Shown here: in pieces, positions 1 through 37,751 of the stretch
How positions within the stretch are numbered: the stretch's first letter is position 1
Layout of the letters: each line of letters opens with the position of its first letter
DNA from: a virus
Length of the DNA stretch: 64,000 bases
Strand: one strand, 5' to 3'
IMG/VR virus record: IMGVR_UViG_3300045988_085724
Coordinates: 33,123-97,122 of that record
Notes under the pieces: model-generated
What the model was told of the DNA's origin: nothing
Database searches by the model: none
Seen by the model: only the letters and a program-made list of their open reading frames with translations
Made by a program: the position numbers and the translations under genes

Positions 1-28
1 TTGGTCCTTTATAACTAATTGTTGCCAT
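1..28 (-). CDS. 5' end of a further late gene that continues off the window
   Basis: ATG at 28-26 lies 8 nt after the TAA (36-38) of the upstream gene. It reads MATISYKGP.. and runs off the left edge. Confidence 0.35.
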
Positions 29-35
29 AATTATT

Positions 36-1574
36 TTATTTTACATTAGTAGCTTGTCTTTTATCCATTGTAGGCATATATGGAGCTGTACCCTATTCTG
101 TATCCTAATAGTATACTATATTATCTTTATTCGACCTCTATAAGAAGTATCTGTCAAGAATTGGTTTATGAGTTTTATCATCAATCTAAATTTCTCCATT
201 TTTCTTCCTAGGTGCACGGAACCATATATTCACAGCTTCACCTCTAAATCTTTTATTTACTCCATCTTGTTTATAATCTTTAGATTTTAGTTCACCTAAT
301 GCGTAAGTTCCGACTTGAGCAATTTCACTTTCATCTACGCCAGCCTATGCTGCCATCATTTTCAGTAAATTATTACTAGTACTGCGATGTTTGTGTGGCC
401 CGTCAGTAAAACCTTTATCGTTTGTATACATCCATCTTTTACTAACAAGTACGCTTCCAAGTTCATCCTTTGGAACATTATAATAACCTGTAAACCGGCC
501 GCTATTATCGTATACTCTAGTTATTCCTCTTCCAGATGGCGGATTTACTCTGTATGCAGGACCATTATGTACAGGGAATATGGCACCAGTATTTGTACCA
601 ATTCTACGATCCGCATCCTCAAATATATCTACACGTACTCCACCACCATTTCCATCTACATCGTATTTTTGATCAATTATCTTTTTCTGTTCATACGCAT
701 TGAGATCTAATGCATTATTAAAACTTGCTAGCTTAAACGGATCAGCCTCGTACTCTTTCTTCTTTAATTTATTTCGATTTGTAGATACTATTTCATCCAA
801 TAACTTATTATTTGCTTCTTCTGTTAATTGTTTATCGGACAATATTGGATTAGCTTTCCTAAGTTCTTCTTTAATTTTATGTAGTTGGAATTTGCCTTGC
901 GCACTACTAAGATATACAGGCATCTGCGCTTTAGCTATATTTTTTAAGTCATCAGAATTTAATTCGTACACTCTATTGCCACCTTCCATACCTTTATATA
1001 TAGGCTCTACGTCTTTAAACCATCCTTCAGTATCTCCACGTATTCCGGTATATTTATGCGCAACACCGTTCCATGCTCGACCAGATTTCAATGTGTCATA
1101 ATCTTTAAACGGACTATTTCCTTCTAATGCATTAGCATATTCATCGAATTCACGATCATATTGACCAGCCTTCTGAAGGTCACGTACATCTTTCATATAC
1201 TCTTTAGCGGCTTCTGCAGAACGTTTTAAGTTAGCTAAATCCTAATAAGGTCTACTATAAATGTAGTCATATATTGCACTTCTACCTTCGATACTTCTCA
1301 TTGGGTCTATTCCCTATCTACGTAAATCATCATATAATTTAGATGCTCCGCCTAAAGTAAGATTATAATACGCATCATTATCTTTAGCAAAAGGGCTTGA
1401 AAAACTTCGTGTATCTTTTACATACTCTTTTAAATCTTGCATTCCTTGCATATAATCTTGGCGCACAGCATTTGCATAATTCTACTGTGCTGCCAAGAAT
1501 AATTGTGCAGTTGCAGGATCAAACATGTCATCCATCTTATAGATAACAGGTTGTTCTTGTCCTAATATATTCAT
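36..1574 (-). CDS. virion/tail-associated protein (512 codons, TAG-recoded)
   Basis: One frame runs from ATG 1574 to TAA 36-38. It is interrupted only by 8 TAG (CTA on + at 1482, 1314, 1242, 345, 186, 138, 105, 93). Track ORFs 1482..1757 and 345..1196 are fragments of it. Confidence 0.75.
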
Positions 1575-1581
1575 TATTATA

Positions 1582-3726
1582 TTATTTATATAATGTTCTA
1601 TTAAATCTTCTTTCTTCCAGATCTGCTTTGCGATCGTATAAGTTAATAAGTCTATTATTATAATCTTGTGCGCTTGCAAATTGTTGCTGCTAAAATAAAT
1701 TCTTTCCAAGTGCTCCAAGCATATTAAGTCTACCTTGGTTAGCATTCTCCATACCAAGCAATCTACGTGCTATAGCCTCTCTATAAGCTTGCTGTTGTTG
1801 AGCAAGAGCAGTCTGTCGTCTAGTAGCATCTCTATCGCCAGCCTCCATTAATGCTTGTGCATAAGCTTGTTTATACTTATTATTTATGTCATTAGCTTCT
1901 CCGTACAATTTGGCCATATTCATCATATAGTTGTTACCATGCGCAGCTAACATCTTAGTACGTTGTCCAGCACTAAGTCCACCTTGTTGATTTATATTAT
2001 AAATACCTTGTCTATATGCATCACGTATCTATTGAGCTTGTTGATACGGATCAAAATACATTTGTCCAAGTATACTTAATGCTCTATCAGCATTGCTATT
2101 ACGGACATAGCTATTAGCAGCTTGTGGAGCAGAATTTTTATAATAGTTGTATTGGCTGTTAGGTATTCCGTATGCTCCAGCATATATTAATGGCTATAGC
2201 CAATTTAAATTAAATTTACCTTTATCATACTGAGGCATTGTACCGTCATATATATTCTATATCTTATGTTGCATTTCTTGTCTGTTTAATGGTTCTTTCG
2301 TGCTTTCTACAAGCTGCTATTGCATCAAGTCTAACTGCTTGAGGTTAAGCTCTTTAGTTTTGCTATCAGCATTTTTATTAGACTCAATCAACTTACGCAG
2401 TTTTTCATTCTTAGCGTACTATTTAGACATAGGAGCTACTTGGTCTGCAAATGATTTTCCATTAGTCCAATCTATATCATTACCTGCAATATAGTTATTG
2501 TCACCTTCCTGTACCGAACTATATTGATCATCTGCACGTTTCTTTCCTTTATCTATATAGGTCATCTTACCTTCATCGAAGTTTACAATAGTCTCTCCTT
2601 TACCAACCTTAGAGTTTATCGGGCCAAGATGATATCCATCTTTATCGAATACCATTCCATATCTACTTTTGCTAGGTTGATCTATTAAGTTATAATTTAC
2701 AGCTGTTTTTCCTCTATCGGCATTATATAAAGATGTACCAGTATAAGTATCATTATCGAATTCATTTCTAAGTCCTTCTGATGCTGCTACAGATTCAGCT
2801 TGCTTATTCTGATTAGCGTAACTTGAAATCAAAGCTTCTTTTCTGCGTCGTAATTCACGCTTACGTCTGTCACGTCCAAATAATGATCCTAAACCACCTA
2901 CGAGGCCACCAATTAATCCACCACCTATAATTCCAAGCGGACCGAGCGATGTACCAAGCAACGATCCTACTGCTAATGCAGATCCTACACCAGCTCCTAC
3001 TCCAGAAATACTATTGGATAATACTCTGTTATTTTCTCCGTACTTCAGCATTCTATCGTACGCAGAAGTATCTCCGAGGTTTTTAGTAGTATAATCAACT
3101 CCATTTACAGATTGAGTGATTTCATTGTGACTTTGGTCTATCATGCCTGAAGTTGGAATACTCGGACCTTTTGCAAAGCCACTTCCGAGATTATATAATC
3201 CGTACGCAGCACCTACTGCACTTAATGCAGTTCCAACAGTACCTCCTAAAGCTGATGTTGCTTGTTTTGTAGTTTCTTGTATAGCTTTTTTGCTAGCTTC
3301 TTCTCCGGCCTATTTTGCACCGGCAGACATTGCCTATCCGAGTGTATTATTTGCAGCAGCTTTCAACATCTGATCTGTAGACATCTTCGATATATTTGAC
3401 ATCATAGTTTTTGTAGAGGCCTATAATGCTGCATTAGAAGCTTTTTGACCTAGCCCGCCCATTATTGATGAATATTTAAATGCACCAGTCAATGGTTGTT
3501 TTAACATGGTAACATAAGGCGTGCCTGTACTTACAGCACCTTGCAATGATGGTTTATACATTCTGGCCTCTGCAGACATATCTTGTCCCTACTATATTGA
3601 AGGAGTACCTACATTAAAGTTATCACTTTGCTAATAACCAGATGCAGTCTATTTTGCTGCTAAATCATATCTAGGTAGTCCGTTTCGTATTTGTTTATAT
3701 TGTAATAATCTATCTCTTTTATTCAT
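1582..3726 (-). CDS. large structural protein with a glycine-zipper/TM-like block (ejection- or tape-measure-like), TAG-recoded
   Basis: Runs from ATG 3726 to TAA 1582-1584. Track pieces 2419..3144 and 1690..1953 join through TAG only (e.g. 3649, 3631, 3592, 3589, 2419, 1690). Contains GVGAGVGSALAVGSLLG..GGLIGGLVGGLG followed by RRKRELRRRK. Confidence 0.7.
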
Positions 3727-3728
3727 AA

Positions 3729-6700
3729 TTAATTGTATGATTGTCTAAATTTGGTTATTATATGTGATATTGCATGATCATTGTCATTACTATTCATCAA
3801 CAGTTCTTCTATCATCCATTTACCGCGTAATCTACGAATTCCATCTGCACACCTTGGTATCGGGAAGCATATATTTCCTTCTCTATTTGTATATTTATCG
3901 ATCATTCCAGCTTCATCTAAATCTGTATAGAGATTGCAGTTGAAATTATCGTAATCAGCAGTTTGTTTAGTATGACTAGAAGTCGTATTATATAATTGCG
4001 GGAAGACTATTTGCTGATTATCAAATACTTTTGTAACTGATGCATTTGGATTTACTACAAAGTTCAATCTGGCTGTATCATCAGTTGTTGGAGTTTCGCC
4101 ATCATTACACCAACGTGTATATGATGCAAAATTAGATCTTATCGAAATTGCATCAGTCTGATTTGTTAAATTATTATATACTGTAGCTAATTGTCCATTT
4201 AACACATCATACATAGACTACGCTATACCTAATTTGCAGTTAAATGCTAATGTCATTTCCTCACTTAAAATAGCGTTATTTTTAATTGGGTGAAACAATA
4301 ATTCATCGTTAATTGTGTCGTATGTAATTGTAGGTACTTGAGTATCGCCATTAATGTTTATCTACATTAGTGTCTTTACATTACAATTTTCCGTAAAGTC
4401 TAATACTGACATTTTAGTGCTACCATATGCGCCAGATGTAGCTTTGTATGCTGCAATACATTTATTGCCGTAATCAAACCAATATATATCGTTATCGACA
4501 TTTACTTTACACATATCTTGTGCCCTCATTCCAAACTTGGTACTTAAGTAGTCAGATCTCTGCAATACAGTTCCTTGTCCCAGTTGTATAAGGTTACTAT
4601 TTTCATCTTTAACAAGTGAACGCTCATTAACAGATAACTTACCAAATGCTTTAGTTTGCCAGAAATACAATGTATCTTGTGTAGTAAATAAATCAGTTAA
4701 TTCTCCGTATATTGGGTTAACGTCTATGTAATCCACAGGTTTAAATATATTCCAACTATTTAAAAGTTCTCCGTTAGTCTTTAGTTGTGAATAACATATT
4801 CTTTGTGTATAAGTATTCTACAGATATGTAGTGCTCTATGGAGAATATAAATCGTTACTGGTTCCGTTGTCAGAATAAATAAGGTTATATTGATGTACTG
4901 GTCTATCTTGTGAAGTTACACCCTTTATTTCACCAGCTTCAGCTTGTAAGTTAGCGTTATTTGTATTACGATAATTCATTCCATAATCGAAATACTGATT
5001 GATAGTACTTTCCATCGGAATATAATGTATTGTCTGCATAGACTGCAATGAACTCTTATCGTCATTAAAGTCATACGCTTTATACATGCCTTCGATCTCA
5101 TATATCTGTGTATACATATCACCTGTAAATACGCTCATCTTATTGATGTCATTTTCTCCTAAAGAACATGCTTTATAATCACCAAATCCATAATACGTAT
5201 CATATTGCTTAGACGACATATCTTTACCAGAATAGTGTATAGCAGGATGTGTGATCTCACATAGAAGTGTTCCCGGATAACTATTTAATTTAGATACTTC
5301 TTCCGGATCTTTAGAATTTACTTGAGGGTCGAATGATGGTATTAAAATTCCACCTAAAGCCGATGGACTGTAATAATTTGTTATAGGATTGGTCGTTATT
5401 ACTTCTCCAAAAATATATTTTAGACTGTGAGATTTTATTATTCCCCCGTTCTACGAATCTATTAATTTGCCCAATTGTTCTCTATCATCAGATAACTATA
5501 TTATCAAACACCTTGCGGCAGGACCGATTGGCCCAATAGAAGGGAAACTCCTGTGTTCATGGTTACCTGAATTCTCAACGTTTGTAAATTCAACGACATC
5601 CTTCCATGTACCTTCTGTCCATCCGAATTCATTATTTGTCCCTACAGGAATATCATATTTACTACTACAAACCCAATTCAAATAACTAGACGTAGATATA
5701 TTTTTAGCATATGATTTATATTTCTTTACAGCGTTACTTATTTTACTTCCATCCATGACATGATTAGAAAAACCATCCTCCCAATTAAGCATTCTTACGT
5801 TTGATATTTCACGTATCTACATAGAATAATTATTTTGGTTCAGATTAAATTTGGTATCTTTTGTAAACTAAACATTATCTATGTCTACTTTGTATCCGGA
5901 ATTTATATTGTTAGGCCTCAATACTGGCTCACCGTTGTCATATACAATTTTATTATCAGAATCTAGCATGAAAAATCGCCTAGAATATACAGTATTTGCT
6001 GAGTATAAGTACGACAATTTATTTACCTTATTGGATTTGTCTGATTTTGAATAACTTAACGCTTTATAATTTACATTTGTATATTTGCCAAATGTATAGC
6101 TGTATTTATCAAACCCGTCACTACTAAAATCTATAACAGGAACAAAACTTAACGAAAATATATGTGTTTTTTGTATCTAGTATGAGGCGACAGCACACTT
6201 AGACGTATAATCATCATATGCATCATCATTTGTAAATCTTACTATATCTGTTTCGGTTGGAGAATACAAATACAAAGCGGGCGTTAATGATATTTGATTT
6301 GTTTTAAGTTTGTTTAACGTGTCATCCACATACGTCTGTATCTCAGGGCAATATACCTAATATAGTCTATTATCAGACGCACCACTAGTCATTTGTTCTG
6401 GCCATTGTGTTGCATTGCCATTCGGATATGGAGTATATCCTATATACTAAGGATTACTTATAATAAATCCTGTAGGATAATATGGAGAGTACGTACCATC
6501 AACAAGTTTCTGTCTAACGGTACTTGCTATTACAACCTGTTGCAGTGATCTAGAATATTCATCTGTACGTTGACAACGTACTATTTCGTATCCGCATATG
6601 TGGTTTGTATTAGCAAAATCTTTAAATGCATCATTTAATGTAAATTCTATACCGATTTGTATTGTGCCTAATTCGTTTAATTTAATTATGCCCGGATGCG

Positions 6701-8438
6701 GAATTCGTATATCACCTATCCATATTACGTCACTTCTTGTACCGTCGTTCTTATACAATACTATGCCGTATCGGTATACTTCACCACGTTTAAGAGATTT
6801 GATACAACTACTTGTAATAGCATCATTATGAGTCACCTTATCTGGACGTGGAAACCCACAATCAGAAATAATATCATACGCATTCGGTAGAGGTACATTT
6901 TCTTCTTGGTCTTGAGGTATTTTGGGCTTGATATCAAAAACAGGTACAAATCTATCATCGGACAAATCGTACTGTAGATAATACGAATTATTTGTATCTA
7001 TCGCCTCATCGTCATCAATCTAAAGTAACTATAACCTCCATGAGATATAAACACCGCTACCTCCAATATAATTATTATAATCAAACATGGCGTTACTGTA
7101 CTGATTATCAAAATTATGATTTACATCGGCATATGGGTTTGAATAATCAGCATTGTTGAACATCTTATCGCTTATAAAAGCCTAAACTGCTTTATCACCA
7201 TTGTCAACCTAGTCAGGAGATTTAGACTCTGGTTTGTTATATGTATTTACATCTAGATACGGAATATTATACTTATTACCGCTAACCGGAGTAAACTATA
7301 TAGCCCAGAACTTTTTAAGATCTTCTCTATCTAATTGAAATATAGTATCATCCTTTACATTTCCAGCGAATAAATAGCCTTGATTTTGTTCAAGTAATTT
7401 AGGTATAATGTCCTGTCCATGTATCTAAGCGAACTCTTCAACGGATATAGTCTGTAAAGTCTTACGCCCGTTATCTATAACACTAATGTTTGTGCCTGTA
7501 AACTCACCGTCATATATCAGATCAATCTAAGCATTCTAATTAGGTTTTATATATTGTATTCTATATACCTATAGCCTATCGAATTGATCTATCTTCTCAT
7601 CAACTGCTATTCCTAACTATAAACCTATTGACGTAACTGTATCTTCAGCACAGCCAACTTCAGTATCACGAGAAGGATTTATGACTTGATATTTACGACT
7701 TAATGGTGCTAATTTACTAGTTACTCCATATTTCTTATAGAATCTATAAGTATATTGTACCTATGAAGTTTTAAGTTGTCCTCCTACGATTGCCTTATAT
7801 GTAATAGCATGTTTTGGGAAATACCTATTTTGACTAATTAAATCTATATCAATTTCTCCATCTGTTTTATGGGTTGTTTCATCTATTTTATACAGACTTT
7901 TAATATAATCAGTATCCTTTACATTGATCATCATTATCTTATGCTCGCCGTCTGCAATATATAGATTTACTACTTTGTCAGTTTCATACTGTAATACTGC
8001 CGAAACATTTCGCAAGTCAACTGCATCTTCTACTTTTTCTCGAATTTTTATTTTGCACAAGAATGCCCATCTGTATCTTGGTAATTCATCAGAAGCCTCT
8101 ACTTTATACAAATATATGTAATTATTATGTAGCTTAATTAAGATATTAGTGTCTCCTGACGTAATTATTTTTATTATCCGCTGAGTTTTATCGTCGTCGA
8201 ATTTAGGTACAATCTAAGTCGTATAAGTAATGTCTTCATTTAACGCTTTAACTGGAGTCATTACTCCGTATTTTCCATATGCAGCGATATCATTGTAGCT
8301 ATTTATTTTTGACGTACCGTACGGCCGCAAATTAACAGCATATATGTACTGGTTATTTTTAATAGTGTCATACGCAGAATCAGTATTCATACCACCAGTA
8401 AAAGTATTTATAAACGTATTATTCTGTTCAGTAGCCAT
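3729..8438 (-). CDS. giant tail/structural protein (1569 codons, TAG-recoded)
   Basis: Runs from ATG 8438 to TAA 3729-3731. Seven track pieces (8214..8501 down to 3729..4214) share one frame. I checked 6966-7340 codon by codon and found 5 TAG and no TAA/TGA. Confidence 0.75.
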
Positions 8439-29035: not shown

Positions 29036-29038
29036 TCG

Positions 29039-29557: not shown

Positions 29558-29985
29558 TATGTTAGTTTAGTTAATGCGCCATGCATAATAAATGTAACTT
29601 GGCTATTATTTGCAGATAACTTACGCACAATCGCTGTAATAATGTACATGTTATTATTTGCAGTATTATAATAATTAGTAGTATAATATAACGTCATACT
29701 GTTGTCTGCACTCGTCTCACGCTATAAATTAAATATAAGCGTTGGGAAATCATTTACTCCGACTGGTCCAAATGCATCTTGTACACCATTCCAAATAATA
29801 TATTGAGGTGGGTATCCATTTCCAAGAGCATCTCCTCTCTATGTAAATATTAGTTTTTGCTAGTCTTCTGGTATACTGTACGAGTACGTATCCGTTGTTT
29901 TACTACCTAAAGTAATCGATATAGGATGAGCAAATTTTGTCCAGTCTTTTAGGCGAACAAGTCCAGATCTGTCTAATGTTTCCAT
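29557..29985 (-). CDS. small late protein (142 codons)
   Basis: Runs from ATG 29985 to TAA 29557-29559 (TAATG overlap with the next gene), with 3 in-frame TAG. Confidence 0.55.
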
Positions 29986-29991
29986 AGGTTA

Positions 29992-31284
29992 TTATATTAA
30001 TATTTTAGTTAATTCGTCATTAGAAATAGCTCTAAGCGTAGATTCATCCCAAACAGCTGCACCATCTATTGATAATGTACTATGATCTGCACTATATTGG
30101 TACGTTAGAGAATCAACAAGTGTACCAACCTCATTAGTTTCAGAATCACATTCTCCAAGGATGCTGTATGTATTTCCTATAGCAGTTGATGATAAATTGC
30201 TATTAGTCAGCTTGTGCGTATTAATAGCGTCATAGACAGCTTTGCCACTTACTGCATCAGTACCAGTACTTTCTACTTTATTCACGACTGTATTCCTAGT
30301 GGCACCATCTGCTATTCCATTCAACTTAGTCAACAGCGTAGGTGACATCAAACCGTTCGTATTAGTCGTTACAGTAGGTATTGTAGTAGGACCTACATTT
30401 GCGCCCTGATACTCAGTTAATTTCAATTGGAGATCACTAGAGCCATCTGTAGCTGGAACAAATCCTATAGTCTCAATGCGATGCTTGTTAATCTCACTAG
30501 CGATTTTCTTGTCTGCGTCAGTCTTAGTATAATAACCACTTAGATCAAATGAAGCAGTAACCTCGCCAAGTTTCTCCCATTTAGTAGCATCATATGTAGC
30601 AGTAAGATCACCAGTGTAAATATATTCGGCATAATTATTCTTGTCTCCAGTAGTTCCTACAGCCTTCAAATAAATATGCTTCTTAATAGTAGCAATAGTA
30701 CTGGGTAATTCAGTCACAACTTCAAACAATGTAGTATCGAGATTACCAAGTTGACTCAATGGTATAAATCCTTTAGTATCAAGTGTAGCAAATCCATTTG
30801 GTAAACCAAATGTATTTAATTTGTCAGCAACTGCTCCACTCCAAAGGTTAAGACTCTCAAATTTAGCATCAGAATCAGTTTTAAAAGAATTTAAATCAGA
30901 CGTAACGGAATTTAAATTATTTTCAAATGTTTCGTCTTTTTCTTTTAATTCCTCGAGAATTGGAGTAATCTCGTCACTAACCACGGTAATGATTTCATCA
31001 GCAGTAGGAACCTTTTCCCAACCTGCAGCTTTACCACGGCTGGCCCAATTGATTAATCTGTAATCCTCATTACTTTCTTGTACGTGCCAAATCTGACCTA
31101 CAGCATCAGCGCCAGTAGTTGTACCATCACCATATGAAGATGACAGGACACAAGCTGCGATCGAATAAAGGTCTGCCTGTGTAGCAACTGTTCTAAAACC
31201 AGATATCTGGTTGGCGTCAACAATTCCCCAAGATGCTGGGTTAGCAGACACCACTTTCGCCATTCTATATAATCTTCCTGCCAT
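29992..31284 (-). CDS. tail fibre protein (430 aa, TAG-free)
   Basis: Uninterrupted ORF. It shares the ..LPxT...IYL...EYIY....DLSxYYTK.. module with the 32572-34479 fibre gene and has a T/S/G-rich beta-like sequence. Confidence 0.65.
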   Translation of the reverse strand: MAGRLYRMAKVVSANPASWGIVDANQISGFRTVATQADLYSIAACVLSSSYGDGTTTGADAVGQIWHVQESNEDYRLINWASRGKAAGWEKVPTADEIITVVSDEITPILEELKEKDETFENNLNSVTSDLNSFKTDSDAKFESLNLWSGAVADKLNTFGLPNGFATLDTKGFIPLSQLGNLDTTLFEVVTELPSTIATIKKHIYLKAVGTTGDKNNYAEYIYTGDLTATYDATKWEKLGEVTASFDLSGYYTKTDADKKIASEINKHRIETIGFVPATDGSSDLQLKLTEYQGANVGPTTIPTVTTNTNGLMSPTLLTKLNGIADGATRNTVVNKVESTGTDAVSGKAVYDAINTHKLTNSNLSSTAIGNTYSILGECDSETNEVGTLVDSLTYQYSADHSTLSIDGAAVWDESTLRAISNDELTKILI

Positions 31285-31286
31285 AA

Positions 31287-32078
31287 TTATTCAAATTTAA
31301 GAGTACAACTAGAATTCAGTGCACCATTGCCAGTATAATATACATTATACGAAATTGCAGCAGCACCTGAACCATTATCATGATTAACAGTCGTTTTAGT
31401 AAATGCAGTAAGCACAGCATCTACACCATCCTTAGAGATGGCTTTAAGATCTCCCCAAGCAGTAGGATAAGCATATACATACATCTGTGATACAGATGTA
31501 GCGCTAGCATTAACCTGCTTAGTCTTTGATGTAGTTATCTCACTTGTGAGACCGCTGATTAATGCATCTGTAATAGTACCTGCAGTAGCTACACCATAGA
31601 ATATCTTGTTACCAAAAGAAGCACGAGCTGTACATGAAGTAGTATCCACAGCAGTAGCACTAGCCTGATGAATCTTTCCATTCTCATATACAAGGCCTGC
31701 CTGAGGAGCTGTAATGCTCTGTGTAATATTGGTAGTAGTTGAAATCAAATCTGATGTATATGAAGCACTGGCCGATGACGGATCTGGTAGTGTTGTGCCC
31801 CATGAACCGCTTGTTTTTGTAGGAAGTTTCTTAGCACTGTCTGCAGTATACATCCACCTACCTGTGAATTTTACTTTGTAACCATTTTCTACAGAAACGT
31901 TGGTAGTTGTAATCGGAGAGCCAACAGCAGTTGTTCCATCATTCTTATATATCTGCCAACTTGGAGAAACAATTACAGGGGTTACAAGAGGTTTATCGCC
32001 TGTAAGAATACCGTCATATCTACCTTTGATTTTGTTCCAAAAAGCAGTAACGCCGGCCTTATCTAAAAATTCTGCCAT
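31287..32078 (-). CDS. tail fibre/receptor-binding-associated protein (263 aa, TAG-free)
   Basis: Uninterrupted ORF with S/T/A-rich composition, lying between the fibre genes. Confidence 0.6.
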   Translation of the reverse strand: MAEFLDKAGVTAFWNKIKGRYDGILTGDKPLVTPVIVSPSWQIYKNDGTTAVGSPITTTNVSVENGYKVKFTGRWMYTADSAKKLPTKTSGSWGTTLPDPSSASASYTSDLISTTTNITQSITAPQAGLVYENGKIHQASATAVDTTSCTARASFGNKIFYGVATAGTITDALISGLTSEITTSKTKQVNASATSVSQMYVYAYPTAWGDLKAISKDGVDAVLTAFTKTTVNHDNGSGAAAISYNVYYTGNGALNSSCTLKFE

Positions 32079-32079
32079 A

Positions 32080-32388
32080 TTATAAATCTTCTATAAATTG
32101 TTTAGATATACTTTCGACATTTATAATTCCGTTATGTATATTAAGATTGTCTCCGCACTGTACTATGCCAGGTCTCTATTTAGATGCTATATTGTTAAAT
32201 GTAACAACATTGTCAAGTCCAGACAGATATTTTATATACATTTTTATACTATTCGCATCTAATAAATCACCTTCCTCAAAATTGATATTAGACAGGCCTT
32301 CATACTTATTTAGAATGATAACCGACGGTATTTTAGGTATCTTTACATTTTCAATTAGTTTAGTACCAAATAGTTTTGATTTATTCAT
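32080..32388 (-). CDS. small protein (102 codons)
   Basis: Runs from ATG 32388 to TAA 32080-32082, with one TAG at 32176. This extends track ORF 32176..32388. Confidence 0.55.
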
Positions 32389-32431
32389 GCTATATTTATG
32401 TATATCTGTAATTTTATAAGTAATACAATAT

Positions 32432-32542
32432 GGACTAGGACTAGATACATCCTAGTCCACGATAATTAAAATATAAGACCTACCTTTTTCATATTTAAAT
32501 ATGCGGTAGATTCTGTTGCACTAGGCGGGGTAGCGAACCCCG
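32432..32542 (-). promoter_or_regulatory. two intergenic GC hairpins after the fibre gene
   Basis: The hairpins are GGACTAGGA-N9-TCCTAGTCC (32432-32458) and CGGGGT-AGCGA-ACCCCG (32526-32542). No clear U-tracts follow. Confidence 0.35.
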
Positions 32543-32571
32543 TAATGCTTACATTAAGACCTAGTTAAGTT

Positions 32572-34479
32572 TTATGCAGGAGTATTAGCAGCTTCAAGAG
32601 CTCTTACCTTAGTTTCTAATTGTTCAATACGTGATGTTAAATCTGCTATTACTTCTTGAACTGATTTATAAGTAGTATTGTCTGTGCTAATACCGTCATA
32701 TCCACCTACGCCTATAAGGTATTTGTATCCGTTTTTAGGATCGTCAGTTAAACCAGTACCATTTTCGTTATTTTTAGCATAGATATATTCAGCATTTTTT
32801 CTAGTTGTATCATTACCTATACCGACTGAATGAATAGCATTTTTGTTATCAACGTTATAAATACCCTAAGCGTGAGAACAATACCCACTAGCTTTTGTAT
32901 TATTTCCTTCTGAATGAGATGAGTATCCATTGCTATACGTATTGCTTCCTTCAGCATGTGAAAAATCATCGCTTGCAATTGTATTTAGTCCTTCGGCATG
33001 AGAAGAGTTACCAAGAGCTTTCGTGGTTTGTCCTTCTGCATGTGAATAAGGTCCACTAGCTTTTGTACTATTACCTTCAGCGTGAGAACCAGTGCCGGCA
33101 GCTTCTGTAGAATATCCTTCAACGAATGAATAATATCCACTAGCAGCACATGAACCATTAGCAGTAAAAGCTTTCAATCCTAACGCTTTACGACTCTCTT
33201 CAATATAATAACCACCACTAGCACTCTTCTTTAACAATACATCAGAAGCATTAGCTTTAGTAGCTAAATCAGCAACATTAGCCTTAGTAGATAAATCTAC
33301 AGTAGAGCCATCAGTAGCCCATGCTTTAGTAGCAGAGGGATTAGCGAAAGCTGCTATACTTTTTACACCTGTTATAGTAGCTCCTTCGGTACCATTTATA
33401 GGACGAGATATTTTAAATTTAGGGTTATTATATTGTCCAAAAATTATTGAACATTCATCATTAAAGGTTGTTAAGTTAATAGCTGTATCGTCATCTACAT
33501 CCAGCTATATAGAATTGTTAATAACATGTGAGGAATAATTTGCACCATATATACGTAATCCATATTTATCAAGTCTACCACTATAGTTTCCATTGTCTTT
33601 TAAAAAAAGACCATAGATAGCATTAATCCTTACATTATTGGCGCCGTCATCTAAAGACAGCTCTACTGGAGAATACCCATACTCTTGTTCTTCCTCTGTA
33701 AGGTCTTTATTGGTATTTATTTCAATACTACCGTTAATATTATAGTTATACATATACATATAACCGTCATATACATGAGCACTCTGGCCTCTACTTTCAA
33801 TATCCAGACCACCACTGTAAAGATTACCATAACATCCGTTGTCATCACTATGTCTAAAACCATCGGAAGCATTAATATCAATAGTACTGCCATCATTGTG
33901 GTCAGTTAAAGATACATTTACCGGACTACCGTAATCTTCACCAGCCGCAGTATCATTGATGTCTAGTTTTATAGATTTGGTATCGTCTTCATTATGTATA
34001 TTAATAGCACTATTCTTTGCTATCTATATCTAATTATCAGTTTCTTCTTTAGTATAGTAGTCTGACAAATCTACTTTGGCCTGTATTCTACCTACTTCCT
34101 CAAATGTATTCTTTGACTCTACATAGATATACTCAATGAATACATTATTGCCTTCACCATCCTTATTTGGTACAAGATATATACAATTCTTATCTATATC
34201 TGTAGTAGGAAGCTCTGTAACTATCTTAATCAAGTTATGATCTATAAGCTGTTTAATAGACTCATTAATCTTATTAATCTTATCAGTTTGAGCATCAAGC
34301 TCATTAGATATATCCGAATCCAGTGCATTCAGATATGCCACAATGTCTTTAGCAAGCAATATATCAGATGTACCAAACTCAGTATCTTTACTGTCGGCCG
34401 GAACAGCAATATTAAGATTAGTCATCTGGTTAGTTTGTGGGGATAAGTACTTAGCCCCAGTTATTTGTGTTTTTAACAT
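32572..34479 (-). CDS. tail fibre with Hep_Hag-like repeats (635 codons, TAG-recoded)
   Basis: Runs from ATG 34479 to TAA 32572-32574. It joins track ORFs 34030..34479, 33505..33759 and 32866..33237 (same frame) through TAG. It ends in a C-terminal coiled coil. Confidence 0.7.
32869..33138 (-). repeat. about 14-residue protein repeats (xSHAEGxxTxAxGx)
   Basis: Reads GYYSFVEGYSTEAAGTGSHAEGNSTKASGPYSHAEGQTTKALGNSSHAEGLNTIASDDFSHAEGSNTYSNGYSSHSEGNNTKASGYCSHA. Confidence 0.8.
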
Positions 34480-34564: not shown

Positions 34565-35095
34565 TTATTTATCCGACTCAGAACCGTTTGTTGGTTCAGC
34601 CGCTTGATCTGGTGCAGTCTCAGTATTCTGAGATCCTGTATCCGCGCTAATATCTTTCTTATCTGAAGAACCATAGCCATCTTCTCCACGCTCAGACTCT
34701 GAAAGATTATCTGCAAAAACAGGTTCAATTTCAGGATAAGGCATGATGACCAACTGCGCAATCCTATCACCAATACTATATACAGCAGGAATAGAATCAC
34801 CACTAGTGTTCTTAAACTTTAGAAGGATTTCTCCACGATAGCCTGAATCTATTACACCCACAGCGTTAGTAAGAGTAAGAGATTTCTTATATACGCTAGA
34901 TCGTTGGAACAAAAGACCAACATGACCAACGGGAATTTCGGCAGCAATACCTGTATGATATACTAAAACAAACTGACCACACTCGTTAACCTCACTTGTA
35001 ATATTTACACACGTAAGATCCAAACCTGCATCTGTAGAATGTGCTTTACTAGGCAATACTGCTTTATCTGATAATTTCTTAAATTTAACTTCCAT
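34565..35095 (-). CDS. dut: dUTP diphosphatase
   Basis: Carries dUTPase motifs AGLDL, GVIDSGYRGEI, RIAQLVI and a C-terminal ERGEDGYGSS. It is TAG-free and ends in TAA. Confidence 0.85.
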   Translation of the reverse strand: MEVKFKKLSDKAVLPSKAHSTDAGLDLTCVNITSEVNECGQFVLVYHTGIAAEIPVGHVGLLFQRSSVYKKSLTLTNAVGVIDSGYRGEILLKFKNTSGDSIPAVYSIGDRIAQLVIMPYPEIEPVFADNLSESERGEDGYGSSDKKDISADTGSQNTETAPDQAAEPTNGSESDK

Positions 35096-35096
35096 A

Positions 35097-35720
35097 TTAT
35101 TGTATGTTTATAAAATCTATAAATAAATAATCTTTAGAACCCGATTGTTTATGTTCTTCTATGTTCTGATGGTTCTTCAATTTAGCATATAATATAGGAC
35201 ATAGGTCGTCAATTATACGTAAGAACTTATTATCATTCTTAAATAAAGATGTAGTACTAGAGTACTTATCAACCAGTGTAGGTATGTCTTTATTCTTAAA
35301 CTCGTACAATACTTTCCAATCGTACTTTCTATTGCCTCCGAAAAACTTTATGTTCTTATATTGCGTCTCGTAAGTTTCACAGTCGTAAATAAATTCGTGC
35401 TCCTTATTTACAGCTAAAGGATCATGTTTGGCAAAAGAATCTTCTTCGCATAATACTCGTACATAGCAATCTCCTTTCTTGTCGAGGAATTTAAGCATTT
35501 CCCGTAATACCCTCCATGAATTATCGTATGCTATTCTACCATGACGAATTTCTTCACACATCATATCGTTATACCACAATCGTATATCAAATACTCTTGC
35601 TCCAAGTTCATATTGTTTTTCGTAATCTATTGATTGACATCTAGCGGTAAATTTAAGTAACTTACCCCACCATGTTTTAGGTGTAAGATATGTCAATGAG
35701 TTATGTGTTCCTATATTCAT
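35097..35720 (-). CDS. PI-PLC X-domain-like phosphodiesterase
   Basis: N-terminal IGTHNS, then ARVFDIRLWY..IRHG. This is the same order as the GTHDS / FDIR / HHG catalytic motifs of bacterial PI-PLC. Confidence 0.5.
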   Translation of the reverse strand: MNIGTHNSLTYLTPKTWWGKLLKFTARCQSIDYEKQYELGARVFDIRLWYNDMMCEEIRHGRIAYDNSWRVLREMLKFLDKKGDCYVRVLCEEDSFAKHDPLAVNKEHEFIYDCETYETQYKNIKFFGGNRKYDWKVLYEFKNKDIPTLVDKYSSTTSLFKNDNKFLRIIDDLCPILYAKLKNHQNIEEHKQSGSKDYLFIDFINIQ

Positions 35721-35738: not shown

Positions 35739-36000
35739 TAGCCCATGTAGGTATCGATCCCACTCCTTCGGGGTTCTTCCAACATCATGTCACCATGACC
35801 GTAAAACGTTGTTGGCTGGACTTTGTCTTCACCATGCTTTCGTTTAGGTGTCTCGTATAAAGTCTCTACACTCGGTATTTAAACCTAGCTCGGCGTTATC
35901 TACTAGAGACGTTCGCCGACTTAGCGAGATGTTCATCTAAATGTTTCCAAATAGAGCTCCACCAAAGAGCCCGACGTGCTAGCCAGTACACAAATGGGCA
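35739..36000 (-). tRNA. amber-suppressor tRNA(CUA), Gln-like body, interrupted by a group I intron
   Basis: Exon 1 (36000-35966) is TGCCCAT-TT-GTGT-ACTGGCTA-GCAC-G-TCGGG-CTCT. Exon 2 (35775-35739) is AAC-CCCGA-AGGA-GTGGG-ATCGATA-CCTAC-ATGGGCT-A. Joined, they form a 72-nt cloverleaf with anticodon loop CTCTAAC (anticodon CTA). Confidence 0.8.
35776..35965 (-). ncRNA. group I intron (190 nt, no ORF) between anticodon positions 35 and 36
   Basis: P1 pairs exon GCUCU with intron GGAGC, with a U.G at the splice site. P10 pairs GGU, adjacent to the internal guide sequence, with ACC of exon 2. The intron ends in G. It has R-like GUAGAGACUUUA and S-like GAAGACAAAGUCC elements (P7 GACUUU/AAAGUC) and GAAA- and GUGA-capped hairpins. 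Confidence 0.75.
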
Positions 36001-36216: not shown

Positions 36217-36435
36217 TTATACAAATAAAGATATGACTATTATTTGTAAAGCTTGGCCGATTACTCCGCCAATTTCACCAGCGGCTATGTCTAACCAATC
36301 AAACTTACCGCCATTTTGTTTATCTTTAAATTCCATACCGAATGCCAATCCTGTACTAAACAGTATTGTGCCAATGAAGGCTGCTGGTATAGAATATAAA
36401 AGATGTTTTGGTCTGTTACTTTCTTTTAACCACAT
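36217..36435 (-). CDS. small two-TM membrane protein (72 aa)
   Basis: Intact ORF with two hydrophobic helices. Confidence 0.5.
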   Translation of the reverse strand: MWLKESNRPKHLLYSIPAAFIGTILFSTGLAFGMEFKDKQNGGKFDWLDIAAGEIGGVIGQALQIIVISLFV

Positions 36436-36500
36436 ATTATTTGTATATTTATGTTTAAATAAAAAATTTACATTATGAAAATTCTCATCATTATGGATAG

Positions 36501-36570
36501 AACCTTATGCCGGAATCGAACCGACCTAGTAGCTTTGTATCGCCTGACTCCACCAGTTGTCTTATAAGGT
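36501..36570 (-). tRNA. tRNA-like gene with an unresolvable anticodon arm
   Basis: It has a perfect 7-bp acceptor (ACCTTAT/ATAAGGT), a D arm (GAC..GTC) and a T arm (GTCGG-TTCGATT-CCGGC). I can pair no 5-bp/7-nt anticodon arm in GGCGATACAAAGCTACTAG. Confidence 0.35.
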
Positions 36571-36607
36571 TACATTTGTTAATATGAGCTCAATTATAAG
36601 TATGGAG

Positions 36608-36689
36608 CGCAGAGCCCAGGATTTGAACCTTGATTCTTCTGATAATCACCAAAGGTTAATCAGATGTTTTACCTTATAAACTACTCCGC
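36608..36689 (-). tRNA. tRNA-like gene with a 27-nt anticodon arm (10 extra nt)
   Basis: Acceptor is GCGGAGT/GCTCTGC, D arm GTTT-ATAAGGTA-AAAC, T arm CAAGG-TTCAAAT-CCTGG. The anticodon position is TCTGAT-N15-ATCAGA. Confidence 0.35.
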
Positions 36690-36717
36690 GAGGAATTTCT
36701 TAACTGTGTTCATGTCG

Positions 36718-36792
36718 TGGGCGCTGATGGATTCGAACCACCGACCACCTACTTGTAAGGCAGGTGCTCTAAACCAGCTGAGCTAAGCGCCC
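36718..36792 (-). tRNA. tRNA-Val(UAC)
   Basis: GGGCGCTTAGCTCAGCTGGTTTAGAGCACCTGCCTTACAAGTAGGTGGTCGGTGGTTCGAATCCATCAGCGCCCA forms a canonical cloverleaf with anticodon loop CTTACAA. Confidence 0.85.
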
Positions 36793-36841
36793 AAAGTACA
36801 GTGTTTGAGGTACACCGTAAAACCTAGTTTTAGTAACCAAC

Positions 36842-37144
36842 TTATTTCTTTCGTGTGATCCAATCCCAGAAACGAGCAAAGATGTTCTTTTTCTTAGGAG
36901 TCTCTTTCTCTGTCTCATTAGCAATAGGAGCAAATGCCTTTGTAAGTGCTTCTGTAACAAGAGCACTAATTCTTTCAGTTGAAAGAATTGCCTCACTTAC
37001 TGCATGACCAACAGTAGCGTTGTATTCAAATTTAGTGATAGGTACACCAGCATTAACTTTCTCTTTTGCTATTGCTACAAATACATCAACATCATCGATG
37101 CATTCTGTAAGATCTACTACAAATGTATATTTATTCTTTTTCAT
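36842..37144 (-). CDS. hypothetical protein (100 aa)
   Basis: Runs from ATG 37144 (MKKNKYTFVV..) to TAA 36842. The track start at 37174 is a non-ATG extension. Confidence 0.55.
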   Translation of the reverse strand: MKKNKYTFVVDLTECIDDVDVFVAIAKEKVNAGVPITKFEYNATVGHAVSEAILSTERISALVTEALTKAFAPIANETEKETPKKKNIFARFWDWITRKK

Positions 37145-37164
37145 AATACCGATATTAATTATTT

Positions 37165-37548
37165 TTACTCGCATTTACAACAGTCACAGCTACATGATCC
37201 TTTGCAGATAGAATAAGCTGCGTCAATCATTGCATCATTCTTTTTTGCCTCTTCTCGTTTGATATAAGCAAGAACGTTCTCCTTCCAGTCTTTGTTCTTT
37301 ATTACAATCACAGGATAAATAATCCAATCTTCATCGTAGAACGTTACGATAATATCACCTTTATCTGCCTTGAGTACCACATCTTTTCCGTTCTTTTTAT
37401 AACGAATCTCCATGTCCTCTGGTGCAATATAACATTCATTGACGCTGCATCTAAACGGAGCAATTGTTTCGACTGTCTGCTTATTAAAATCTATGAATAC
37501 CGGACGTTTTACGTATTTACCGGTTCCAATAAAACTAAGTGTCTTCAT
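37165..37548 (-). CDS. hypothetical protein with a Cys-rich C-terminus (CKGSCSCDCCKCE)
   Basis: Intact 127-aa ORF ending in TAA. Confidence 0.6.
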   Translation of the reverse strand: MKTLSFIGTGKYVKRPVFIDFNKQTVETIAPFRCSVNECYIAPEDMEIRYKKNGKDVVLKADKGDIIVTFYDEDWIIYPVIVIKNKDWKENVLAYIKREEAKKNDAMIDAAYSICKGSCSCDCCKCE

Positions 37549-37751
37549 CTGTACGTTTGTTTTTTATTTGTTTTAAATCTGGTTTTCAGCTTAAACTTAA
37601 ATAGCGTATTGAATAGTATGTCTTTAGTTTCATCTCCTTTCATTAAGTTTACTGTCTGTTTAAAAGGATGTTTACATACACTACTTACAATCTATTCATC
37701 TATGTTAAGTTTTTTAGATACTTCTTTTACGACATCATCTATATCAATCAT
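37545..37751 (-). CDS. small protein (68 codons) with one in-frame TAG
   Basis: ATG 37751 overlaps the upstream TGA (ATGATTGA); the stop is TGA 37545-37547, overlapping the next ATG (ATGA). It is not in the ORF track. Confidence 0.5.

What the first reader, a model, noticed from the sequence alone, without database searches (positions are those of the whole stretch)
1..37751. TAG is a sense codon across the minus-strand late arm but never occurs inside plus-strand genes
Adjacent ORF-track fragments on the minus strand lie in the same frame and are separated only by TAG.

- **TerL:** at least 7 in-frame TAG.
- **Portal:** at least 7.
- **Gene 22751-24190:** 14.
- **Gene 36-1574:** 8.
- **Gene 3729-8438:** dozens.

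Every re-joined gene ends at TAA or TGA, often with classic ATGA/TAATG junctions to the next gene. TGA and TAA therefore remain stops.

All plus-strand genes (about 21 kb of coding sequence, including ThyX, the sigma factor and 387 codons of PolB) lack internal TAG. The reassignment is thus partitioned by strand and temporal class. This fits the alternative-coding lifestyle described for some gut phages, in which late genes are unreadable until a suppressor is made.

Standard-code gene calling shreds or loses about 35 kb of this window.
Basis: partly seen in the sequence, partly recalled or inferred. Interest (0 to 1): 0.8.

Follow-up and report, generated by a model that had tools for sequence, protein, structure and literature searches.

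The report
Amber-recoded crAss-like phage late genes
This is a crAss-like gut phage that reads the stop codon TAG as glutamine in its late genes, which is already well documented for this lineage; what seems unreported is that its own suppressor tRNA gene is in the window, split by a self-splicing intron that hides it from tRNA finders.

Summary
On the minus strand, 25 of 36 genes carry 140 in-frame TAG codons. Examples are TerL (11), portal (7), 22751-24190 (14), 36-1574 (8) and 3729-8438 (23). All of these genes end in TAA or TGA.

TAG means glutamine. Where the window and two relatives differ at a TAG site, the partner codon is CAA or CAG in 35 of 58 and 53 of 164 cases. TerL and portal profiles align in one stretch through every TAG.

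The split is not by strand:
- The first seven minus-strand genes have no TAG, nor do five others including the major capsid protein.
- Three plus-strand genes appear to end at TAG.
- One plus-strand gene (38733-39212) has a conserved in-frame TAG with conserved coding sequence after it.

The phenomenon is already known. The window is about 94% identical to RefSeq CrAssphage cr131_1, whose annotated genes read through TAG, and the literature covers code 15 in crAss-like phages.

It is interrupted by a 190-nt group I intron in the anticodon loop. Near-identical phages carry no intron, or a different 988-nt intron, at the same site.

The parts
36..1574 (-). Late gene (orthologue of cr131_1 gp51), 512 aa, 8 in-frame TAG, ends in TAA
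1582..3726 (-). Late gene (gp52 orthologue), 714 aa, 13 TAG
3729..8438 (-). Virion structural protein (gp53 orthologue), 1569 aa, 23 TAG
8428..17404 (-). Block of 12 late genes (gp54-gp65 orthologues) with 0-10 TAG each. 15108-15854 has 10. 11606-12034 and 13236-14330 have none.
17486..18997 (-). Major capsid protein, 503 aa, no TAG although it has 15 CAG. It is uninterrupted here, whereas in cr131_1 it is split by an HNH-bearing insert.
   Evidence: Crass_capsid Pfam label on the orthologue
19028..22764 (-). Three late genes (gp69, gp70 and gp71-like) with 3, 6 and 4 TAG
22751..24190 (-). Window-specific late gene, 479 aa, 14 TAG. TAG makes up 61% of its Gln-type codons, the strongest enrichment (p = 4.6e-4). 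No family match.
24193..26679 (-). Portal protein, 828 aa, 7 TAG (TAG under-used, p = 0.001)
   Evidence: PHROG portal profile aligned in one stretch, residues 10-800, E 2e-158
26682..28739 (-). Terminase large subunit, 685 aa, 11 TAG
   Evidence: PHROG TerL profile aligned in one stretch, residues 25-660, E 4.9e-145
28742..34425 (-). Eight further genes (gp75-gp81 orthologues) with 0-4 TAG each. 32572-34425 is the first TAG-bearing gene of the arm. 29992-31284 and 31287-32078 have none.
34565..35720 (-). dUTPase (34565-35095) and a 207-aa protein of unknown function (35097-35720). Both are TAG-free and lie directly downstream of the suppressor tRNA.
35966..36000 (-). Suppressor tRNA(CUA), 5' exon (35 nt), ending in anticodon-loop ...CUCU
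35776..35965 (-). 190-nt group I (IC3-like) intron inserted between anticodon nucleotides 35 and 36 (CU|A)
35739..35775 (-). Suppressor tRNA(CUA), 3' exon (37 nt). No CCA is encoded.
36501..36792 (-). tRNA-Val(UAC) 36717-36792, plus two conserved tRNA-like RNAs of unknown role. 36608-36689 has a 17-nt anticodon loop. 36501-36571 has an acceptor stem and T arm but no normal anticodon arm.
36217..38549 (-). TAG-free head of the minus-strand arm. It holds a lipoprotein (36217-36435), 36842-37144, 37165-37548, a Cpn10-like protein (37744-38151) and DUF7399 (38148-38549).
38733..39212 (+). Plus-strand gene with a conserved in-frame TAG at 39069-39071. It gives 112 aa if TAG stops and 159 aa if TAG is read as Gln.
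52868..53320 (+). Early gene that appears to end at TAG (53318-53320), overlapping the next gene's start by 8 nt
56375..56809 (+). Early gene that appears to end at TAG. The 'read-through' tail annotated in RefSeq has 2 more TAG in 44 codons and is not conserved in cr130_1.
59591..60169 (+). Early gene ending in TAG-TAA. The orthologue in cr130_1 stops at the TAG position.
39287..63999 (+). Remaining plus-strand genes with no in-frame TAG, including ThyX 40266-41057, sigma factor 53869-54423 and DNA polymerase 62839-63999 (cut by the window end)

Best explanation
The window is about two thirds of a crAss-like phage genome (order Crassvirales, family Suoliviridae, close to Cacepaovirus simiae cr131_1). 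It uses genetic code 15 for its late genes, so UAG is decoded as glutamine.

Shown:
- The plus-strand early or replication genes and the first seven minus-strand genes contain no in-frame TAG, with one exception. A standard-code host ribosome can read them, and three of them even seem to use TAG as their terminator.
- The suppressor tRNA with anticodon CUA is encoded at 36000-35739. This is exactly at the boundary between the TAG-free and TAG-bearing parts of the minus-strand arm.
- Its gene is interrupted by a 190-nt group I intron after U35.

Inferred:
- The precursor must self-splice, be trimmed, and receive CCA from host enzymes.
- It is then charged with glutamine, probably by the host GlnRS.
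- Only after that can ribosomes traverse the 1-23 UAG codons in each late mRNA and make portal, terminase, tail and other virion proteins.
- The most abundant virion protein, the capsid protein, avoids TAG altogether. This fits a cost of imperfect suppression.
- Late genes are therefore untranslatable until the suppressor accumulates. This couples their expression to the progress of infection.
For: Recoding:
- 139-140 in-frame TAG lie in 25 minus-strand genes, and none of these genes has an internal TAA or TGA.
- TerL and portal profiles align end to end in a single stretch across all TAG positions.

Glutamine:
- At sites where TAG is present in only one genome, the partner codon is CAA or CAG in 35 of 58 cases against cr131_1 and 53 of 164 against cr130_1. 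Glu is a distant second. These alignments scored TAG neutrally as X.
- RefSeq labels the orthologous tRNA as tRNA-Gln.

Partition:
- There are 0 TAG in 950 codons at 34565-38549, and 1 internal TAG in about 5,200 plus-strand codons.
- Among plus-strand genes, stops are TAA 18, TGA 9 and TAG 3.

Suppressor tRNA:
- Joining the exons gives a 72-nt cloverleaf with loop CUCUAAC, which ARAGORN calls tRNA(cta).
- It sits in the same place as the intron-less tRNA(cta) of cr131_1, cr130_1 and L159.

Intron:
- A 7-bp P1 helix forms between exon GGGCUCU and intron GGAGCUC, with U.G at the splice site. The last intron nucleotide is G.
- Rfam Intron_gpI gives a full-length match of 26.9 bits, E 1.4e-4 in a 1-kb search.
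- In an alignment of 26 phage tRNA introns of this type, 40 of 53 predicted pairs show compensatory changes. These include the anticodon stem across the intron and helices P2, P3 and P8.
- The guide sequence co-varies with the anticodon: CUGU/GCAG, CUCU/GGAG and CUUU/GAAG.

Literature:
- Late-gene TAG-to-Gln recoding with suppressor tRNAs in crAss-like phages is described in PMC7886860 and bioRxiv 10.1101/2021.08.26.457843.
- It was confirmed by metaproteomics in PMC9523058.
Against: - No expression data exist for this phage. 'Early' and 'late' are assigned by gene content and by analogy with other crAss-like phages.
- Splicing, aminoacylation with Gln and timing are all inferred.
- The Rfam score for the intron is below the curated threshold (26.9 against 50 bits).
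- The window covers only 64 kb of a roughly 96-kb genome, so a second, intact suppressor tRNA outside it cannot be excluded.
- Translating 23 UAG in one mRNA needs very efficient suppression. In the relative cr131_1 one gene has 53. No release-factor inhibitor or other helper was identified among the window's proteins.
- The plus-strand gene 38733-39212 with a conserved TAG does not fit a simple early/late split.
Confidence: 0.9

Rival explanations
1. The recoding is real, but the early/late partition is a passive constraint, not a regulatory device. TAG drifted into genes that happen to be translated after the suppressor is present. This would be codon capture of a rare stop in an AT-rich genome. 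On this view the switch gives no timing benefit. It may instead harm the host by read-through of host stops, or act as a barrier to competing elements.
For: - TAG use varies widely among late genes with no obvious functional logic. Its share of Gln-type codons is 0% in the capsid gene, 10% in portal, 44% in TerL and 61% in 22751-24190.
- TAG and CAA/CAG interchange freely between 94%-identical genomes.
- TAG positions within genes are not clearly biased towards the 5' end (KS p = 0.08).
- The anti-host idea is raised in PMC7886860, and the codon-capture route in bioRxiv 10.1101/2021.08.26.457843.
Against: - The exclusion of TAG from about 6,000 early codons is very strong.
- The suppressor sits exactly at the boundary.

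Both fit either view, so sequence alone cannot separate constraint from adaptation.
Confidence: 0.3
2. The in-frame TAG codons are true stops. On this view the late arm is a set of fragmented genes or pseudogenes, or the TAG codons are sequencing or assembly errors.
For: Under the standard code the arm breaks into short ORFs. A standard-code ribosome would make only 4,031 of 12,158 codons before the first TAG.
Against: - Fragments are always in the same frame.
- Profiles align through the TAG positions in one stretch.
- About 85 TAG positions are conserved in an independent assembly, and the rest swap with Gln codons.
- Thousands of near-identical full-length TerL sequences come from many samples.
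- A cognate suppressor tRNA is encoded.
Confidence: 0.01
3. TAG is decoded as an amino acid other than glutamine, for example pyrrolysine (ARAGORN's label for a CUA anticodon), tyrosine or glutamate.
For: - ARAGORN prints 'tRNA-Pyl' for the spliced tRNA.
- Glu (10 of 58) and Tyr (3 of 58) are the next most common partners of TAG.
Against: - Gln codons are the partner in 60% of discordant sites against cr131_1, including many TAG/CAA pairs that need two substitutions.
- No Pyl synthesis or charging genes turned up among the proteins scanned.
- Proteomics of related phages found Gln (PMC9523058).
Confidence: 0.03
4. The split tRNA gene in the window is a dead allele, disrupted by a mobile element. 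Suppression would then be provided by another tRNA, either elsewhere in the phage genome or from the host.
For: - About 32 kb of the genome lies outside the window.
- The T loop (AUCGAUA) is unusual.
- The intron scores below Rfam's threshold.
Against: - Both exons are intact and fold into a perfect cloverleaf.
- cr131_1 has only one suppressor tRNA, at this same locus.
- The same intron-split suppressor recurs in at least 8 other metagenome contigs and 1 IMG/VR contig, including contigs of 96-99 kb.
- Sister genomes L161 and L162 keep identical exons around a different intron. This is expected only if the spliced product is under selection.
Confidence: 0.07

Closest known systems
CrAssphage cr131_1 (NC_055902.1; Cacepaovirus simiae, Suoliviridae, Crassvirales)
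   Same: - 93.6% and 95.1% nucleotide identity over two 12-kb test segments, with the same gene order.
- The same TAG-rich late arm. The RefSeq genes read through 221 TAG on that strand.
- The same tRNA-Val, tRNA-Met, tRNA-Gln(UUG) and permuted tmRNA.
- A suppressor tRNA(CUA) at the same locus.
   Different: - The suppressor tRNA of cr131_1 has no intron and is followed by a free-standing GIY-YIG homing endonuclease. The window has an intron-split, 72%-identical tRNA allele and no endonuclease.
- In cr131_1 the capsid gene is split by an HNH-bearing insert, TerL is 147 aa longer, and an HNH gene replaces the window's 22751-24190.
- The RefSeq gene models also read through TAG codons that look like real stops in three early genes.
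Code-15 (TAG to Gln) alternatively coded gut phages, as described by Ivanova 2014, Yutin 2021, Borges 2021/2022 and Peters 2022
   Same: - In-frame TAG is confined mostly to structural, packaging and lysis genes.
- Replication genes are compatible with the standard code.
- A phage-encoded suppressor tRNA lies upstream of the recoded block.
- TAG is equivalent to Gln (PMC7886860; 10.1101/2021.08.26.457843; PMC9523058).
   Different: [quoted passage not shown] Here the suppressor is present but invisible to ARAGORN because of a group I intron.
Bacterial and plastid group I (IC3) introns in tRNA anticodon loops, such as cyanobacterial tRNA-Leu(UAA) and Azoarcus tRNA-Ile
   Same: - A small ORF-less intron of about 190-250 nt in the anticodon loop.
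- It follows a U that forms a U.G pair in P1, and it ends in G.
- It shares core sequence motifs (AACGCCGAGC, GUGUAGAGACU, AAGACAAAGUCC). The likeness to the Azoarcus sequence is from my memory, not a test run here.
   Different: - The host gene is a phage amber-suppressor tRNA, and the insertion lies between anticodon positions 35 and 36.
- A 2014 review stated that all phage introns then known were in protein-coding genes (PMC3984707).
- The only phage tRNA introns I found in the literature are the 'enigmatic' ones of Lak megaphages. Those are in Phe, Gly, Thr and Tyr tRNAs and are not classed as group I (10.1101/356790).

Membership tests
Code-15 alternatively coded phage (TAG to Gln) | Conserved, homology-supported genes contain in-frame TAG, and homologue alignments continue through them | tested here: met
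   There are 140 TAG in 25 genes. TerL and portal PHROG profiles align in one stretch.
Code-15 alternatively coded phage (TAG to Gln) | TAG positions correspond to glutamine in homologues | tested here: met
   CAA or CAG is the partner codon at 35 of 58 discordant sites (cr131_1) and 53 of 164 (cr130_1).
Code-15 alternatively coded phage (TAG to Gln) | TAA and TGA remain stops | tested here: met
   No internal TAA or TGA occurs in any orthologue-anchored gene. All genes end in TAA or TGA, or in TAG for three early genes.
Code-15 alternatively coded phage (TAG to Gln) | A block of early or replication genes readable in the standard code | tested here: met
   There is 1 internal TAG in about 5,200 plus-strand codons and 0 in 950 codons at the head of the minus arm. 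The exception is 38733-39212.
Code-15 alternatively coded phage (TAG to Gln) | A phage-encoded suppressor tRNA with anticodon CUA | tested here: met
   It lies at 36000-35739 and is recognised only after in-silico removal of the intron.
Code-15 alternatively coded phage (TAG to Gln) | Peptides with Gln at TAG positions | not testable with these tools
   Reported for two other crAss-like phages (PMC9523058), not for this one.
Group I self-splicing intron | A P1 helix between the 5' exon end and an internal guide sequence, with a U.G pair at the 5' splice site | tested here: met
   GGGCUCU pairs with GGAGCUC over 7 bp. The guide sequence co-varies with the anticodon across the family.
Group I self-splicing intron | A terminal G at the 3' end of the intron, and exact exon ligation restoring the host gene | tested here: met
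   The intron ends ...GGAAG. The joined exons form a cloverleaf orthologous to intron-less alleles.
Group I self-splicing intron | A conserved catalytic core (P3-P8 and P4-P6) recognised by the curated covariance model | tested here: inconclusive
   Rfam RF00028 gives a full-length alignment of 26.9 bits against a gathering score of 50 (E 1.4e-4 in a 1-kb search). RNAalifold on 26 family members supports P2, P3, P4/P6, P8 and P9 with compensatory changes. P7 is invariant.
Group I self-splicing intron | Self-splicing with a guanosine cofactor | not testable with these tools
   Needs an in-vitro splicing assay or RNA data.
Crassvirales / Suoliviridae / genus Cacepaovirus | High nucleotide identity and shared gene order with the exemplar genome | tested here: met
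   Identity is 93.6% (77% of the segment covered) and 95.1% (100% covered) in two 12-kb segments. 64 of the 85 cr131_1 proteins have orthologues in the window, in the same order. Identity of about 94% is close to the usual species line, which I did not compute for the whole genome.

The most novel reading that the evidence does not exclude
The tRNA that executes the code switch is itself an intron-containing gene.

- In this phage lineage the anticodon loop of the amber suppressor is a hot spot for mobile group I introns. Near-identical genomes carry no intron, a 190-nt ORF-less intron, or a 988-nt insert with an HNH endonuclease ORF, all at the same CU|A site.
- Standard tRNA finders miss such genes. 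Intron-split suppressors could therefore account for part of the long-noted 60% of TAG-recoded phages 'without' a suppressor tRNA.
- The need to splice could add an RNA-level delay or checkpoint before late genes become readable.
Probability: 0.45. Interest if true: 0.6.

Novelty: already known. Interest (0 to 1): 0.35.

Why it matters
The recoding itself matters mainly in practice. Standard-code gene callers lose most of the late arm of this very abundant gut-phage lineage. Blanket use of table 15, on the other hand, wrongly extends early genes that really end in TAG, as in the RefSeq record of the nearest relative.

The added observation could matter more. If suppressor tRNAs are often split by self-splicing introns, the reported absence of suppressors in many recoded phages is partly a detection artefact. 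Surveys of phage tRNAs would then need intron-aware models. It would also put a ribozyme in the pathway that unlocks late gene translation, and that is directly testable.

Tried and rejected
- ARAGORN in default mode, and with its intron option (-i10,400), did not find the split suppressor tRNA. With the option it only re-labelled the odd tRNA-like RNA at 36608-36689.
- Rfam at gathering thresholds, and an E-value scan of 29 kb, missed the intron. It appeared only in a 1-kb search.
- The large protein search with TerL returned only near-identical sequences (96-98%) that were already translated through TAG. It gave no independent evidence on which residue sits at TAG.
- An exact-junction search in IMG/VR gave one chance hit (L008), and 22 of the 31 metagenome hits were unrelated.
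- My automated P1 scoring on alignment A2 mis-indexed the CUA examples. Its summary statistic (3.64 against 3.02 bp) should not be leaned on. Only the per-sequence exon/guide pairs for the GUU and UUU tRNAs were used.
- blastn of the pre-tRNA and of the intron against 50,697 GenBank phage records found nothing, even at E = 1.
- Folding the two tRNA-like RNAs together with cr130_1 failed, because that genome has no homologous stretch there.
- Pfam and PHROG searches gave no family for 22751-24190, 38733-39212, 35097-35720 or most early proteins. No release factor, aminoacyl-tRNA synthetase or amidotransferase was found in the window.
- Pyrrolysine, assembly error and pseudogenisation were considered and rejected (see the rival explanations).

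Full report
**What the window is.** The window has 36% G+C, and its strand skews flip near 38 kb. Two 12-kb test segments match RefSeq NC_055902.1, 'CrAssphage cr131_1'. This is Cacepaovirus simiae (Suoliviridae, Crassvirales), from rhesus macaque faeces, 96.7 kb. Identity is 93.6% and 95.1%. The next relative, cr130_1, is about 81% identical. Of the 85 annotated cr131_1 proteins, 64 have orthologues in the window, in the same order. The window therefore holds about two thirds of a genome of this lineage. It comprises a minus-strand arm (36 to 38549) and a plus-strand arm (38733 to the end), diverging from 38549/38733.

**Checking the observation.** With TAG read through, stop-to-stop ORFs tile the minus strand from 36 to about 35,789. 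The longest ORF grows from 509 to 1594 codons. I anchored starts on the cr131_1 orthologues and counted in-frame TAG codons:
- TerL: 11
- Portal: 7
- 22751-24190: 14
- 36-1574: 8
- 3729-8438: 23

The total is 139-140 in the 29 genes between 36 and 34425. That is 12.4 per 1000 codons, or 26% of all Gln-type codons. No gene has an internal TAA or TGA. A standard-code ribosome would complete only 4,031 of the 12,158 minus-strand codons before meeting a TAG.

**Are the TAG codons sense, and which amino acid?** The re-joined TerL and portal match the PHROG terminase and portal profiles in a single stretch. TerL aligns over residues 25-660 (E 4.9e-145) and portal over 10-800 (E 2e-158). Homology therefore does not stop at TAG.

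Codon-by-codon comparison with cr131_1 shows 84-87 TAG positions shared by both genomes. Where only one genome has TAG, the other has CAA or CAG in 35 of 58 cases, with TAG scored neutrally. Glu follows with 10 and Tyr with 3. Against cr130_1 the partner is Gln in 53 of 164 cases, again the top class. Many pairs are TAG/CAA, which need two substitutions, as expected for synonymous exchange. TAG = Gln is therefore well supported. The conservation of TAG sites in an independent assembly argues against assembly error.

**The partition is not by strand.**
- The seven minus-strand genes at 34565-38549 have no TAG in 950 codons (p = 2e-5 against the rest of the arm). They are a DUF7399 protein, a Cpn10-like protein, two unknowns, a lipoprotein, a 207-aa unknown and dUTPase.
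- Five genes deeper in the arm also have none. Among them is the major capsid protein, with 0 TAG against 15 CAG (p = 0.016). Portal under-uses TAG (10% of Gln-type codons). Gene 22751-24190 over-uses it (61%, p = 4.6e-4).
- On the plus strand, three genes seem to end at TAG. For 59591-60166 the cr130_1 orthologue has its stop at the aligned position. For 52868-53320 the orthologue ends within a few codons. For 56375-56809 the sequence after TAG loses all similarity and has two more TAG in 44 codons. The RefSeq record of cr131_1 reads through these. I take that to be a side effect of translating the whole genome with TAG as a sense codon.
- One plus-strand gene is a true exception. Gene 38733-39212 has TAG as codon 113 in the window, cr131_1, cr130_1 and L159. 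The 42-46 codons after it are conserved at protein level, with 7 synonymous against 8 non-synonymous changes relative to cr130_1. This gene may be made in a short form early and a long form late. That is an inference.

**The suppressor tRNA.** ARAGORN and Rfam report four tRNAs and a permuted tmRNA in the window. The tRNAs are Val, Met, Gln(UUG) and an odd Val-like one. None has anticodon CUA.

cr131_1 has a tRNA(CUA) between its lipoprotein gene and the gp83 orthologue. At the same place in the window I found the two halves of such a tRNA, 190 nt apart. They span 36000-35739 on the minus strand. Joining them gives a 72-nt cloverleaf with anticodon loop CUCUAAC, which ARAGORN then calls tRNA(cta).

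The insert has the marks of a group I intron:
- It follows a U that forms a U.G pair in a 7-bp P1 helix (exon GGGCUCU, intron GGAGCUC).
- It ends in G.
- It aligns over the full length of Rfam's group I model. The score of 26.9 bits is below the curated 50 bits (E 1.4e-4 in a 1-kb search).

**A family of tRNA introns.** A scan of IMG/VR with two core motifs returned more than 120 loci. In at least 25 of them the intron sits in the anticodon loop of a phage tRNA. The anticodons are GUU, UUU, UCU, CAU, UGU and UAA, plus CUA in three further contigs.

I aligned 26 of these. In that alignment 40 of 53 predicted pairs show compensatory changes. These include the tRNA anticodon stem that closes over the intron, and intron helices P2, P3 and P8. 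The guide sequence changes with the anticodon: CUGU/GCAG, CUCU/GGAG and CUUU/GAAG.

**Distribution and variation of the split suppressor.** The same exon-intron junction occurs in 8 metagenome loci, including contigs of 95.9 and 99.0 kb. There it often lies directly upstream of dUTPase.

Near-identical phages differ at this one site:
- L159 and L160 (TerL 97% identical) have an intron-less tRNA(cta).
- cr131_1 has an intron-less allele followed by a free-standing GIY-YIG homing endonuclease.
- L161 and L162 (TerL 98% identical) have exons identical to the window's. At the same CU|A position they carry a different 988-nt insert with a 300-aa HNH endonuclease ORF. I did not establish whether that insert is a group I intron.

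Exons kept intact around two unrelated inserts argue that the spliced tRNA is needed. No GenBank phage record matches the window's intron.

**How it most likely works.**

Shown:
- Early genes and the head of the minus arm are readable in the standard code.
- The suppressor gene lies at the boundary.
- TAG-bearing genes begin 1.3 kb downstream of it.

Inferred:
- The precursor self-splices and is matured by host enzymes, which also add CCA (no CCA is encoded).
- It is then charged with Gln. Its D arm resembles that of the phage's own tRNA-Gln(UUG), although overall identity is only 54%.
- It then competes with release factor 1 at UAG.
- Genes with up to 23 UAG need very efficient suppression. 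How that is achieved is unknown. I found no release factor, synthetase or obvious inhibitor among the window's proteins.
- The TAG-free capsid gene fits selection against the cost of imperfect suppression in the most abundant product.

Whether the partition is an evolved timer or only a constraint cannot be decided from sequence.

**Comparison with what is known.**
- Late-gene TAG-to-Gln recoding with suppressor tRNAs in crAss-like phages, notably the delta group (now Suoliviridae), was described by Yutin et al. (PMC7886860).
- It was generalised and given the timing model by Borges et al. (10.1101/2021.08.26.457843).
- It was confirmed by metaproteomics by Peters et al. (PMC9523058).
- The nearest RefSeq genome is already annotated with TAG read through. 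Public protein collections hold thousands of full-length TerL sequences of this lineage.

The finding is therefore already known. What I could not find in the searchable literature is a suppressor tRNA split by a group I intron. Related points from the literature:
- A 2026 preprint still reports a recoded Crassvirales genome with no suppressor.
- A 2014 review states that all phage introns then known were in protein-coding genes.
- Lak megaphages were reported to have 'enigmatic' introns in other tRNAs.

**Verdict.** The recoding itself is ordinary for this lineage. The intron-split suppressor and the variation at its locus are the parts worth following up.

Noticed in passing
window 35739-36000 (-); L161 505-1564; L159 3366-3439; L001 9258-10135: The suppressor tRNA locus varies among near-identical phages. 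The states seen are: no intron; no intron plus a neighbouring GIY-YIG homing endonuclease; a 190-nt ORF-less group I intron (the window); and a 988-nt insert with an HNH endonuclease ORF at the same CU|A site, flanked by exons identical to the window's.
   Followed up: yes
IMG/VR loci L007-L127 (e.g. L113, L120, L122, L013, L019, L035): Small IC3-like group I introns of about 180-245 nt sit in the anticodon loops of many phage tRNA genes. The tRNAs include Asn, Lys, Arg, Met, Thr, Leu and amber suppressors. A 2014 review said no phage tRNA introns were known.
   Followed up: partly
window 36608-36689 (-) and 36501-36571 (-): Two conserved tRNA-like RNAs lie between tRNA-Val and the lipoprotein gene. 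The first has a 17-nt 'anticodon loop', and its anticodon stem shows a compensatory change against cr131_1. The second has an acceptor stem and T arm but one long hairpin instead of D and anticodon arms. Both are also present in cr131_1 and L159. Their function is unknown.
   Followed up: partly
window 38733-39212 (+), TAG at 39069-39071: This is the first gene of the plus-strand arm. It has an in-frame TAG conserved in four genomes, with a conserved C-terminal extension after it. It may be made as a 112-aa protein before the code switch and a 159-aa protein after it.
   Followed up: partly
window 45353-45459 (+) and 47758-47827 (+): Two RAGATH-1 hammerhead ribozymes score above Rfam's gathering threshold (67.7 and 66.9 bits). 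Each lies about 110-140 nt upstream of a tRNA gene: tRNA-Met at 45599 and tRNA-Gln(UUG) at 47938. They may process the early transcript around the tRNAs.
   Followed up: no
window 52430-52792 (+): This is a phage-encoded permuted (two-piece) tmRNA with tag peptide GNYNVVDYTHVA, ending in TGA. It is also annotated in cr131_1 and cr130_1. It might rescue ribosomes that read through TAG-terminated mRNAs once the suppressor is active, but that is speculation.
   Followed up: no
window 56945-58982: A 2-kb stretch has no ORF longer than 134 codons with TAG read as sense (at most 210 under any single stop reassignment). It is 97.7% identical to cr131_1 and 76% identical to cr130_1, both of which also leave it unannotated. 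It has no Rfam match and no notable repeats. It could be a large non-coding RNA or a replication region.
   Followed up: partly
NC_055902.1 gp25, gp30, gp32 (orthologues of window 52868-53320, 56375-56809, 59591-60166): The RefSeq gene models of the nearest relative extend these early genes past a TAG that comparison with cr130_1 indicates is their real stop. Reading TAG as sense across the whole genome over-extends early genes.
   Followed up: yes
window 17486-18997 (-) and 26682-28739 (-) versus L001 27379-29758 and 17336-19834: The capsid gene is uninterrupted in the window but split by an HNH-bearing insert in cr131_1. TerL is 685 aa here against 832 aa in cr131_1. Content of mobile inserts therefore differs between these 94%-identical genomes.
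   Followed up: no
window 40266-41057 (+): ThyX is only 54% identical to the cr131_1 protein, although the flanking genes are 90-95% identical. This suggests replacement of the allele by recombination.
   Followed up: no
window 44845-47462 (+): The window has about 1.7 kb more than cr131_1 here. The stretch holds five small TAG-free ORFs with no family match in those tested (45729-46088, 46145-46393, 46466-46750, 46752-46967, 46980-47465), together with the first hammerhead and tRNA-Met.
   Followed up: no
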